Origin: Methylocystis sp.
GTDB lineage: Bacteria; Pseudomonadota; Alphaproteobacteria; Rhizobiales; Beijerinckiaceae
DNA: 64,000 nucleotides
Reading direction: 5' to 3' (one strand)
NCBI RefSeq assembly: GCF_050181815.1
Contig: NZ_JBFXCV010000003.1
Both the position numbers and the translations under genes were made by a program. The notes under the pieces are model-generated. The model did not search any database. It had not been told where the DNA came from and saw nothing but the letters and a program-made list of their open reading frames with translations. Position 1 is the stretch's first letter; each line of letters begins with the position of its first letter. Below, in pieces: positions 2,808-3,581 of this stretch.

Positions 2808-3581
2808 TTAGCGCTGGTACAATTTCTCCAGCGTGTCGGCGCCGAGGAGTTCGCCCATGCGGCCAAGGATCAGCAGCGCGACTCCGAATGTCGCCAGCGA
2901 CATCCAGCCGAAAAAGACGAAGCCCCAATGAAGCGGGCCGGCAAAGCCTTCGTCCATCGACCAGAACGTATGGCCCCATTCATTGAATCCCACATTCGGG
3001 ATGGTCATGAAGACGCCGACGACAAGCACCACGAAGGCAAGCGAATAGCCCTTGGCGAAAATCGGCAGGCGTGTCTTGGCATAGAGGAACGCGCCGAGCC
3101 CGATGATCGCGAAGAGCGGATAAGAAATATAGAAGGTGATGATATTGCTCGGCGTGAAATCCGTGTCGCGCACGGCGGTCATGTGCCAGACCGCCGTCTG
3201 CTCCGTAAAGAAGCTTAAGCCCCAATAGAGGGCGAGTGAAAAAACCACCAGCCACTGAACCAGATAAATCAGCCGGCGCATTTCGGTTGAGGCGGCGAGG
3301 CTCGCCAGATCGCGGTCGCGCGTGCGCCACAAAAAGCCGACGACGCCGACCGCGCCCAAGCATGACGCGAGAATCGCGAATTGCAGCAGGCTCATCCAAT
3401 AGAACTGGTATTCCGGCGAGAATGAATCGAGGCCGACGCTCCAGGCGAAAATTTGTTCATAGAGGCGGAGGATGGCCACGAAGAGCGTCAACGCCGCAAC
3501 CCCGATGAGAAGGGGCTTCATATCTAGAATTCGTTCGGCGCCCACGGCGGCGGAACGGACTTCAGCTTTTGTCGTGCTCAT
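2808..3581 (-). CDS. pmoC: Stand-alone particulate methane/ammonia monooxygenase subunit C paralog with a degenerate CuC site
   Basis: [31 protein letters not shown] and [20 protein letters not shown] are diagnostic PmoC/AmoC blocks. GGAG ribosome-binding site precedes ATG 3581. No pmoA or pmoB is adjacent. Confidence 0.92.
   Translation of the reverse strand: [257 protein letters not shown]

What the first reader, a model, noticed from the sequence alone, without database searches (positions are those of the whole stretch)
2808..3581. PmoC paralog with the CuC site broken but the CuD site intact
Seen: [26 protein letters not shown] where canonical PmoC reads [25 protein letters not shown]. 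The Asp ligand is Thr (ACG, 3195-3197), the second His is Asn (AAT, 3144-3146) and the following Glu is Thr. NEWGH..PLH is complete (Asn 2982-2984, His 2970-2972, His 2928-2930). Known: in Methylococcus numbering, CuC is D156/H160/H173 and CuD is N227/H231/H245, and both are debated active-site candidates; singleton pmoC copies occur in methanotrophs. Inference: these are multi-nucleotide changes in an otherwise intact gene, so they look selected rather than decayed. This is a natural CuD-only variant that might be a copper-sparing subunit, a copper chaperone or sensor, or a dominant-negative regulator.
Basis: partly seen in the sequence, partly recalled or inferred. Interest (0 to 1): 0.8.

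Follow-up and report, generated by a model that had tools for sequence, protein, structure and literature searches.

The report
Copper-gated PmoC paralog lacking CuC
A lone, well-conserved copy of the methane monooxygenase C subunit in Methylocystis has replaced two ligands of one debated copper site (CuC), kept the other site (CuD) and its pocket, and always sits behind a copper-sensing leader peptide, so it offers a natural test of which copper site the enzyme needs.

Summary
Window 2808-3581 (-) encodes an intact 257-aa PmoC with T129, N146 and T149 where canonical PmoC has the CuC ligands Asp and His and a neighbouring Glu. H133 and the CuD ligands N200/H204/H218 are kept.

This is not decay. 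The gene belongs to a monophyletic clade found in 48 of 78 species genomes of one genus (Methylocystis) and in none of 52 other genera sampled from the family. Pairwise dN/dS is 0.16, and the substituted residues show synonymous codon variation. Of 26 positions near-invariant across diverse CuMMO C subunits, the clade keeps 22. It has replaced and fixed only two, and both are CuC ligands. No substitute ligand appears.

New here: 35 of 36 variant genes, and 0 of 27 canonical pmoC copies, lie about 200 nt downstream of a DUF2946 (CruR/CutF-type) leader ORF with a CCxxH motif and a C-terminal RAPP arrest motif.

The Methylocystis sp. SC2 ortholog (pmoC2Gs, BN69_0727) has been detected by proteomics at low abundance.

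My best reading is a copper-gated, CuD-only alternative pMMO gamma subunit. Assembly with PmoA/PmoB, catalysis and the direction of copper control are all untested. I found neither the CuC loss nor the leader described in the papers I could search.

The parts
2808..3581 (-). Variant pmoC CDS (257 aa): CuC-less, CuD-intact PmoC paralog, ortholog of Methylocystis sp. SC2 pmoC2Gs
   Evidence: ORF, Pfam AmoC 1.2e-92, alignment to 3rfr_C. (SC2 ortholog CCJ06178 = BN69_0727).
3135..3197 (-). Former CuC site: T129 (3195-3197), retained H133 (3183-3185), N146 (3144-3146), T149 (3135-3137)
   Evidence: Among positions invariant across the family, D129T and H146N are the only ones that changed and became fixed.
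2928..2984 (-). CuD site: N200 (2982-2984), H204 (2970-2972), H218 (2928-2930). The pocket residues F213 and F221 lie in or next to this stretch.
   Evidence: The pocket residues are named in PMC11194816.
3588..3591 (-). Shine-Dalgarno GGAG of variant pmoC, conserved as GGAGA in the orthologs
3582..3778 (-). 197-nt leader-to-pmoC spacer. It is 189-257 nt long in the 31 orthologous modules measured.
   Evidence: The consensus fold shows no covariation-supported structure. C slightly exceeds G.
3779..4168 (-). DUF2946 (CruR/CutF-type) leader ORF, 129 aa, GTG start. It has an N-terminal hydrophobic export segment, C47, C72-C73-x-x-H76 and R123-A-P-P126 followed by 3 residues.
   Evidence: all 15 aligned members hit PF11162, best 3.4e-6. 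(linkage to the variant). (dN/dS 0.39). (motif positions match CruR).
3791..3802 (-). RAPP ribosome-arrest motif codons of the leader, three residues before its stop
3941..3955 (-). C72-C73-I-L-H76, the putative metal-sensing motif. C73..H76 lies 46 residues before RAPP, where CruR has CXXC.
4193..4222 (-). Sigma-70-like promoter candidate, TTGACC-18-TAACAT, 25 nt upstream of the leader start
   Evidence: This is a consensus match only: 1 found against 0.6 expected.

Best explanation
The gene encodes a copper-gated alternative gamma (C) subunit of particulate methane monooxygenase.

Shown:
- It is an old, monophyletic PmoC paralog of the genus Methylocystis under purifying selection.
- It has specifically lost the CuC ligands Asp and the second His, plus the neighbouring Glu, and gained no substitute ligand.
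- It keeps the CuD ligands, the three Phe of the CuD pocket and 22 of the 26 family-invariant residues.
- It is always transcribed behind a DUF2946 leader ORF that carries the hallmarks of the copper-sensing arrest peptides CruR and CutF.
- Its SC2 ortholog is made as a protein at low level.

Inferred:
- The nascent leader senses copper through its Cys/His motif. Stalling at RAPP, or relief of stalling, then decides whether the downstream pmoC is transcribed or translated.
- In the same genome, canonical CXXC-type leaders head TonB receptors and MbnPH. By analogy the gene is most likely ON when copper is scarce.
- The product then takes the place of canonical PmoC beside PmoA and PmoB, giving a pMMO protomer with CuD but no CuC. 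This would lower the copper quota or avoid an empty or mis-metallated CuC site.

Whether such a protomer is catalytically active is the open point.
For: - Sequence and site assignment.
- One clade, SH-aLRT 99, and still 95 after the two site regions are removed.
- Distribution: 48 of 78 species of the genus and 0 of 52 other genera.
- dN/dS 0.16 against 0.13 for canonical copies, with synonymous variation at the changed codons.
- 22 of 26 family-invariant positions are kept, only D129T and H146N are fixed changes, and per-site conservation profiles correlate (rho 0.63).
- No ligand-type residue is gained.
- F150, F213 and F221 (Bath F177, F240, F248 around CuD) are kept.
- The predicted fold matches PmoC of 7s4m (TM 0.79/0.83).
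- DUF2946 leader upstream of 32 of 33 genomic and 3 of 3 metagenomic variants, and of 0 of 27 canonical copies.
- RAPP lies 3 residues from the C terminus and CxxH lies 46 residues before it, as in CruR.
- The three other DUF2946 leaders of this genome head MbnP-MbnH and two TonB receptors.
- SC2 pmoC2Gs protein was detected at about 1/400 of the PmoC1 signal and rose 5-fold at high ammonium.
Against: - No data show assembly with PmoA and PmoB, metal content or activity.
- In the related hydrocarbon monooxygenase, single CuC-ligand mutants lost all activity (review PMC13058606), so a CuC-less protomer might be inactive.
- CruR-type leaders usually head copper uptake or homeostasis genes, not enzyme subunits.
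- The variant evolves faster than the nearly frozen PmoC1 (branch lengths), which is unexpected for a subunit that must fit the same PmoA and PmoB.
- The direction of copper control is unknown: CruR turns genes off with copper and CutF turns them on.
- The leader has CCxxH rather than CXXC.
- I found no conserved RBS-sequestering helix or terminator in the spacer.
- Some sublineages also alter CuD (N200S/A, H204C) or H133.
Confidence: 0.42

Rival explanations
1. The product is a stand-alone copper-handling membrane protein. In this reading a PmoC fold has been re-used outside pMMO as a membrane copper binder, sensor, store or relay that uses the CuD site. It would be co-regulated with copper uptake, as other genes behind CruR-type leaders are.
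For: - DUF2946 leaders overwhelmingly head copper homeostasis operons. In this genome they head MbnPH and TonB receptors.
- In one metagenomic relative a PepSY_TM gene lies about 1.4 kb downstream of the variant on the same strand, after two small unannotated ORFs. In another, a multicopper oxidase lies next to the module.
- Abundance in SC2 is low.
- The variant evolves faster than PmoC1.
- There is no partner pmoA or pmoB at the locus.
Against: - A copper relay would not obviously need the hydrophobic Phe pocket and the wider set of family-invariant residues, yet these are retained.
- In all solved structures PmoC is buried against PmoA and PmoB. I know of no PmoC-family protein shown to act alone.
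Confidence: 0.28
2. The product is a non-catalytic regulatory or assembly subunit. It enters the pMMO trimer as an inactive placeholder, a dominant-negative or a repair intermediate, and tunes activity or stabilises PmoA and PmoB when copper supply or stress (for example high ammonium) makes the canonical subunit harmful or unstable.
For: - CuC-ligand mutants of the related HMO are inactive.
- SC2 pmoC2Gs rises as ammonium load rises, while pMMO itself is unchanged.
- Other singleton pmoC copies sit next to ftsH, which suggests turnover of the C subunit.
- From my own knowledge, AmoC3 of Nitrosomonas europaea is a stress-response subunit.
Against: A mere placeholder would be expected to lose the CuD ligands and pocket as well. 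These are kept in about 95% of clade members.
Confidence: 0.2
3. The gene is a decaying or neutral duplicate whose CuC substitutions are incidental.
For: It is a singleton, it is absent from 30 of 78 species genomes of the genus, and one copy (L033) is 5'-truncated near a contig end.
Against: - dN/dS is 0.16.
- The frame is intact in 32 of 33 genomic copies.
- The T/N/T residues are identical across lineages that are only 56% identical, with synonymous codon changes.
- Linkage to the leader is conserved even where the flanking genes differ.
- The SC2 protein was detected.
Confidence: 0.02

Closest known systems
Canonical PmoC (gamma subunit of pMMO), e.g. Methylocystis sp. M 3RFR chain C and Methylocystis sp. 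Rockwell 7S4M chain C
   Same: Same Pfam and TIGRFAM family and same predicted fold (TM 0.79-0.88). It is 55-58% identical. It has the same CuD ligands (N/H/H), the same Phe pocket, and 22 of the 26 family-invariant residues.
   Different: The CuC ligands Asp and the second His are Thr and Asn, and the neighbouring Glu is Thr. Seven further clade-specific changes cluster around the two sites (K86R, A122L, T131V, V136A, Y157F, L212G, V214A). The gene is monocistronic, has no pmoA or pmoB beside it, and is preceded by a DUF2946 leader.
pmoC2Gs (BN69_0727, UniProt J7QLZ6) of Methylocystis sp. SC2, one of the 'orphan/monocistronic pmoC' genes described as typical of Methylocystis with unknown function (PMC3794950, PMC9600857, bioRxiv 10.1101/2025.08.29.672306)
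   Same: It is an ortholog in the same clade, 85% identical, with the same T/H/N/T signature and the same upstream DUF2946 ORF (locus L021).
   Different: There is no structural difference. What is new is the reading. The papers I could search list the gene and its proteomic behaviour, but do not mention the lost CuC ligands or the leader.
CruR-bfrG of Bordetella pertussis (PMC9426467) and CutF-cutO of Rhodobacter capsulatus (bioRxiv 10.1101/2025.02.05.636593): copper-responsive DUF2946 arrest-peptide leaders
   Same: The upstream ORF has an export segment, a Cys/His metal motif at the family's spacing (46 residues before RAPP) and RAPP three residues before the stop. It is the first gene of the unit and is followed by a long spacer (197 nt).
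   Different: The motif is CCxxH, not CXXC or CXXXC. The controlled gene is a PmoC paralog, which is not mentioned among the downstream gene families in the main text of PMC9426467 (its supplementary table was not read). The Pfam score of the window's own copy is below the gathering threshold (15.9 against 23.7 bits).
Stress-type singleton C subunits: amoC3 of Nitrosomonas europaea and pmoC3 of Methylococcus capsulatus Bath (from my own knowledge, not tested here)
   Same: They are monocistronic extra copies of the C subunit, thought to replace or supplement the operon copy under particular conditions.
   Different: As far as I recall, those copies keep the full set of metal ligands and have no DUF2946 leader. 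I did not fetch them.
Laboratory CuC-ligand mutants of hydrocarbon monooxygenase (HMO) from Mycobacterium, as summarised in PMC13058606
   Same: CuC ligands are removed in a CuMMO C subunit.
   Different: Those are single engineered substitutions and they abolished activity. Here the removal is natural, involves several residues, is accompanied by remodelling of neighbouring residues, and is kept by selection.

Membership tests
CuMMO subunit C (PmoC/AmoC, PF04896 / TIGR03078) | Significant full-length match to the family profiles | tested here: met
   PF04896 matches at 1.2e-92 over profile positions 3-243 of 245. TIGR03078 scores 289.1 bits against a cut-off of 280.6. NF041641 AmoC_BACT scores 310.9 bits, just below its cut-off of 319.
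CuMMO subunit C (PmoC/AmoC, PF04896 / TIGR03078) | PmoC helical-bundle fold | tested here: met
   The AF2 model has mean pLDDT 77. The best Foldseek hits are all PmoC or AmoC chains, led by 7s4m_C at TMq 0.79, TMt 0.83. Confidence is low exactly at residues 129-140 and 201-217, the two metal-site loops.
CuMMO subunit C (PmoC/AmoC, PF04896 / TIGR03078) | CuC ligand triad Asp-His-His (Bath D156/H160/H173) | tested here: not met
   The triad here is T129/H133/N146. Among the 48 full-length (>=225 aa) proteins taken from the representative library clustered at 50% identity, 32 carry the full D-H-H and N-H-H ligand sets.
CuMMO subunit C (PmoC/AmoC, PF04896 / TIGR03078) | CuD ligand triad Asn-His-His (Bath N227/H231/H245) | tested here: met
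   N200/H204/H218 are present. The triad is kept in about 95% of clade members.
CuMMO subunit C (PmoC/AmoC, PF04896 / TIGR03078) | Encoded in an xmoCAB or xmoABC operon | tested here: not met
   No pmoA or pmoB lies within 1.5 kb in any of the 33 variant loci. Operonic copies were recognised by the same test.
CuMMO subunit C (PmoC/AmoC, PF04896 / TIGR03078) | Assembles with PmoA and PmoB into the (alpha-beta-gamma)3 enzyme | not testable with these tools
DUF2946 copper-responsive leader (CruR/CutF), for the upstream ORF 3779-4168 | Match to PF11162 | tested here: inconclusive
   The window's copy scores E 0.023 and 15.9 bits, below the 23.7 cut-off, but it covers profile positions 4-117 of 117. 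All 15 aligned orthologs match, the best at 3.4e-6. JGI's precomputed Pfam hits mark the L065 ortholog as DUF2946 (weak).
DUF2946 copper-responsive leader (CruR/CutF), for the upstream ORF 3779-4168 | [quoted passage not shown] | tested here: met
   The ORF ends ...SPRAPPQRG*. R, P and P of RAPP are invariant and the A nearly so in 15 of 15 aligned orthologs. The most divergent orthologs have RGPP.
DUF2946 copper-responsive leader (CruR/CutF), for the upstream ORF 3779-4168 | CXXC metal motif about 45 (+/-2) residues before RAPP | tested here: inconclusive
   The spacing is met: C73-x-x-H76 lies 46 residues before RAPP. The motif itself is CCxxH, not CXXC. C72, C73 and H76 are invariant. The three other leaders of this genome have CXXC.
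DUF2946 copper-responsive leader (CruR/CutF), for the upstream ORF 3779-4168 | First gene of the unit, followed by a long intergenic spacer | tested here: met
   The spacer is 197 nt here and 189-257 nt in orthologs. The upstream neighbour is divergently transcribed.
DUF2946 copper-responsive leader (CruR/CutF), for the upstream ORF 3779-4168 | Copper-dependent control of the downstream gene | not testable with these tools

The most novel reading that the evidence does not exclude
The variant is a catalytically competent, CuD-only PmoC that replaces the canonical subunit in pMMO when the leader reports low copper. If so, evolution has already done the experiment the field cannot easily do: methane oxidation would not require CuC. 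Methylocystis would then own a copper-sparing pMMO isoform switched on by a nascent-peptide copper sensor. The enlarged, less polar pocket (L212G, V214A, Y157F, T131V) could also shift substrate range or affinity.
Probability: 0.2. Interest if true: 0.92.

Novelty: new variant of a known kind. Interest (0 to 1): 0.74.

Why it matters
The identity of the pMMO active site has been disputed for decades. Recent cryo-EM and product-analog work favours CuD. Against that, mutagenesis of a related enzyme says CuC is essential, and some authors propose that the two sites cooperate (PMC13058606, PMC11194816). pMMO cannot yet be expressed and mutated routinely.

A naturally CuC-less but CuD-intact PmoC gives a directly testable system. 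It is conserved in dozens of culturable Methylocystis species, among them SC2, M. rosea, M. hirsuta, M. parvus, M. echinoides and M. bryophila. The tests are simple to state: purify it, see whether it sits in pMMO, and measure copper and activity.

The finding also extends the CruR/CutF type of nascent-peptide copper sensing to a methane-oxidation gene. That bears on how methanotrophs, a major biological methane sink, adjust to copper supply.

Tried and rejected
- Pseudogene or drift was rejected on dN/dS, clade-wide conservation and protein detection.
- Substitute ligands restoring CuC were searched for as clade-specific gains of H/C/M/D/E. None was found apart from an unrelated E244 near the C terminus.
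- A clade defined only by the site columns was ruled out by rebuilding the tree without residues 120-158 and 196-222. The clade persisted with support 95.
- A conserved RNA switch in the spacer was tested with RNAalifold on 14 orthologs. The covariation term was about 0 and there was no helix over the Shine-Dalgarno. Only a small GGGGC/GCCCC hairpin lies about 35 nt upstream.
- A hairpin with a U run over the leader stop codon (3793-3777) is seen in this window, but it is not kept in register in other species and is not more stable than shuffles (z -0.16).
- A C>G 'rut-like' bias is weak (C 0.29-0.40 against G 0.27-0.33) and I do not lean on it.
- Conserved neighbours as a functional clue were rejected. 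The hemW and FAAL flanks are syntenic only in close relatives, and the two-gene module is the conserved unit.
- Literature searches for copper-response data on Methylocystis orphan pmoC genes found none.
- The AF2 model could not be used for distances around the sites. No coordinates are returned and pLDDT is below 50 there.

Full report
**1. What is in the window**

On the minus strand, 2808-3581 is an open 257-codon frame. It starts at ATG 3581, ten bases after GGAG, and ends with TAA. It is a full-length member of the CuMMO C-subunit family. Pfam AmoC matches at 1.2e-92 and TIGR03078 scores above its cut-off.

The nearest solved structures are the PmoC chains of Methylocystis sp. M and Rockwell (E 1e-98 to 1e-101). 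The residue-by-residue alignment shows [28 protein letters not shown] where those proteins have FFTEQDG[AT][20 protein letters not shown]. Numbering in this protein equals Methylocystis numbering, which is Bath numbering minus 27.
- The CuC ligands are T129 (canonical Asp), H133 (kept) and N146 (canonical His).
- The adjacent Glu is T149.
- The CuD ligands N200, H204 and H218 are present.

All codon coordinates in the finding are correct. D->T and E->T need at least two base changes. H->N needs only one.

**2. It is a conserved clade, not a decayed copy**

The 120 best homolog clusters split cleanly. 101 have N146 and 20 have the canonical D/H/H/E. Of the 101, 93 have the exact T-H-N-T + N-H-H signature, down to 56% identity to the query.

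A maximum-likelihood tree puts all 51 sampled variants on one side of a branch (SH-aLRT 99). They are sister to PmoC1 plus the canonical singletons, and PmoC2 and PxmC lie further out. The clade survives removal of both metal-site regions from the alignment (support 95).

A degenerate DNA pattern for DFTPxN[ILMV]xT[FY] finds the variant in 48 of 78 species genomes of the window's genus, and in 36 of 52 high-quality ones. Most have one copy and five have two. It finds none in the 52 other genera sampled from the family. Source names identify the genus as Methylocystis: M. rosea, hirsuta, suflitae, silviterrae, parvus, echinoides, bryophila, and strains SC2, H62, MJC1 and Sn-Cys.

Pairwise Nei-Gojobori dN/dS among 31 orthologs has a median of 0.16 (IQR 0.13-0.19). 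For canonical copies it is 0.13. The changed residues are kept through synonymous codon changes:
- T129: ACG, ACA, ACC
- N146: AAT, AAC
- T149: ACC, ACA, ACG

**3. The loss is surgical**

I searched the library of representatives clustered at 50% identity and kept the 48 full-length (>=225 aa) hits. Thirty-two of them, spanning the whole family, carry the full D-H-H and N-H-H ligand sets, and most of the rest are truncated or divergent.

Twenty-six positions are near-invariant in those 32 proteins.
- The variant clade keeps 22 of them in at least 90% of its members. These include H133, R138, D139, N200, E201, H204, E211, H218 and the Phe residues F150, F213 and F221.
- Two are mildly relaxed: T140, and E210 to D.
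- Exactly two are replaced and fixed: D129T and H146N.

Per-site conservation profiles of the clade and of the wider family correlate (Spearman 0.63).

F150, F213 and F221 correspond to Bath F177, F240 and F248. These are the three phenylalanines described around the CuD active-site model (PMC11194816).

Ten positions separate the clade from canonical Methylocystis PmoC: K86R, A122L, D129T, T131V, V136A, H146N, E149T, Y157F, L212G and V214A. Most lie around CuC or in the loop between the two CuD histidines. No His, Cys, Met, Asp or Glu is gained near the site.

The predicted structure has the PmoC fold (TM 0.79/0.83 to 7s4m_C). Confidence is low in the two site loops, so I draw no geometric conclusions.

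**4. The surroundings give the copper link**

Upstream on the same strand, 197 nt away, lies a 129-codon ORF (3779-4168, GTG start). It is conserved next to the variant in 32 of 33 distinct genomic loci. The exception is a 5'-truncated copy near a contig end. It is also present in three deep-branching metagenomic relatives. None of 27 canonical pmoC copies has one. Those 27 are the pmoCAB1, pmoCAB2 and pxm copies, the canonical singletons, and this genome's own second pmoC.

The flanking genes (hemW, and a FAAL-acyltransferase fusion) are shared only among close relatives, so the two-gene module is the conserved unit.

All 15 aligned orthologs of the small ORF match Pfam DUF2946 over its full length, the best at 3.4e-6. 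The window's own copy scores below the gathering threshold. The invariant features are:
- an N-terminal hydrophobic segment;
- C47;
- C72-C73-x-x-H76;
- a C-terminal QSPRAPP followed by three residues.

[quoted passage not shown] Here C73..H76 lies 46 residues before RAPP. They are also hallmarks of CutF of Rhodobacter capsulatus. The difference is CCxxH in place of CXXC.

The leader is under weaker purifying selection (dN/dS 0.39), as expected if only the motifs matter.

The same genome has three more DUF2946 ORFs. All have CXXC and R[AG]PP, and they head MbnP-MbnH and two TonB-dependent receptors. So the variant pmoC is wired like a copper-acquisition gene.

I could not settle the output mechanism.
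- The consensus fold of 14 spacers shows no covariation-supported structure and nothing over the Shine-Dalgarno.
- A hairpin with a U run over the leader stop is specific to this window.
- The C>G bias is slight.
- CruR switches its operon off with copper, through relief of arrest and Rho termination. CutF switches its target on. The sign of regulation here is therefore inferred only by analogy with the TonB and MbnPH leaders.

**5. Expression**

The literature helps for one ortholog. The Methylocystis sp. SC2 protein at chromosome position 787,720-788,490 (locus L021, CCJ06178) is 85% identical to the window's. It is the monocistronic pmoC2Gs, BN69_0727. In a proteome study it was detected as J7QLZ6. 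Its label-free intensity was about 400 times lower than that of PmoC1, and it rose 2.3 log2 units between 1 and 75 mM ammonium (PMC9600857).

Papers on Methylocystis genomes call such orphan pmoC genes typical, with function unknown. I found no mention of the missing CuC ligands or of the DUF2946 leader in the searchable library. Subscription-journal papers are not covered by that library.

**6. Interpretation**

Firmly shown:
- The variant belongs to an old PmoC paralog clade maintained by selection.
- It lacks CuC, keeps CuD and its pocket, and is genetically coupled to a copper-sensor-type leader peptide.

Most likely (0.42): it is a copper-gated alternative gamma subunit that gives pMMO protomers with CuD only. 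It would probably be made when copper is scarce.

Rivals:
- A stand-alone copper-handling membrane protein (0.28). This is favoured by what CruR-type leaders usually control, by a PepSY_TM gene lying about 1.4 kb downstream (after two small ORFs) in one relative and a neighbouring multicopper oxidase in another, and by the faster evolution of the clade.
- A non-catalytic regulatory or assembly subunit (0.20). This is favoured by the inactivity of engineered CuC mutants in HMO and by the ammonium response.
- A decaying duplicate (0.02).

The retained Phe pocket and invariant network argue for a working CuD environment, whichever partner the protein has.

**7. Relation to earlier notes of this scan**

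- Note e1-5268630 covers the same stretch and proposed a RAPP leader. I confirmed it independently with family, motif-spacing and linkage tests.
- Note e1-5268632 proposed mutually exclusive helices in the spacer. The ortholog alignment did not support it, though I did not test its exact helices.
- A follow-up on another genome (e1-5248957) reached the same overall reading. It is not independent evidence.

**8. Verdict**

Novelty: a new variant of a known kind. The gene is already catalogued, but I found neither its site architecture nor its leader described. Interest is high, because the variant makes the CuC/CuD question testable in culturable strains.

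Noticed in passing
Protein P0123 (271 aa, representative library; no locus fetched): This is another PmoC-family protein, 46% identical to the query, that lacks both copper sites (G-I-N at the CuC positions, Y-I-H at the CuD positions). In the tree it sits on a long branch near PmoC2. P0127, P0155, P0156 and P0180 are further oddities with partial ligand sets.
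   Followed up: no
G000 contigs C23:18393-18743 (L068), C57:16057-16398 (L069), C15:23066-23383 (L070): The same genome has three other DUF2946 leader ORFs, each with CXXC and R[AG]PP plus 3-4 residues. They head MbnP-MbnH and two TonB-dependent receptor genes, so the genome has a family of four putative copper-sensing leaders.
   Followed up: partly
G000:C25:31929-32645 (L001): The genome's second pmoC has canonical ligands and is also a singleton. No pmoA follows it, and an AraC-type regulator with a DJ-1/PfpI-like N-terminal part lies directly upstream. It groups with the M. rosea singleton L054.
   Followed up: partly
G000 contigs C92:2-178 and C73:2-178 (L003, L004): The only traces of pmoB are C-terminal fragments at two contig starts, and no pmoA was found in the assembly. 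The duplicated pmoCAB1 operons evidently failed to assemble, as is reported for Methylocystis MAGs.
   Followed up: partly
window 3777-3793 (-): A 7-bp hairpin (CCUCAGC-GAG-GCUGAGG) followed by UUUUU overlaps the last codons and the stop of the leader, right after RAPP. It is not kept in the same register in other species and is not more stable than shuffled sequence.
   Followed up: partly
L065:1937-3334 and L066:6207-7691: In a deep-branching relative with S129 and S200, a multicopper oxidase is divergently transcribed next to the leader-pmoC module. In another relative (A200), a PepSY_TM gene lies about 1.4 kb downstream of the variant pmoC, after two small unannotated ORFs, and its DUF2946 ORF appears split over two frames.
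   Followed up: partly
Homolog clusters P0054, P0074, P0075, P0092, P0093, P0118, P0119: Some sublineages of the variant clade also change the CuD Asn (to Ser or Ala), the first CuD His (to Cys) or the retained H133 (to Asn). The metal chemistry is therefore not uniform across the clade.
   Followed up: no
window 4618-7476 (+): This is a 952-aa fusion of a carrier-protein domain, a fatty acyl-AMP ligase and a C-terminal acyltransferase. It is divergently transcribed from the leader and is syntenic only in close relatives.
   Followed up: no
G032:C14:59827-60441 (L033): This is the one variant copy without a detectable leader. It lacks its first 52 codons and lies 479 nt from a contig end, so it is either a truncated allele or an assembly artefact.
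   Followed up: no
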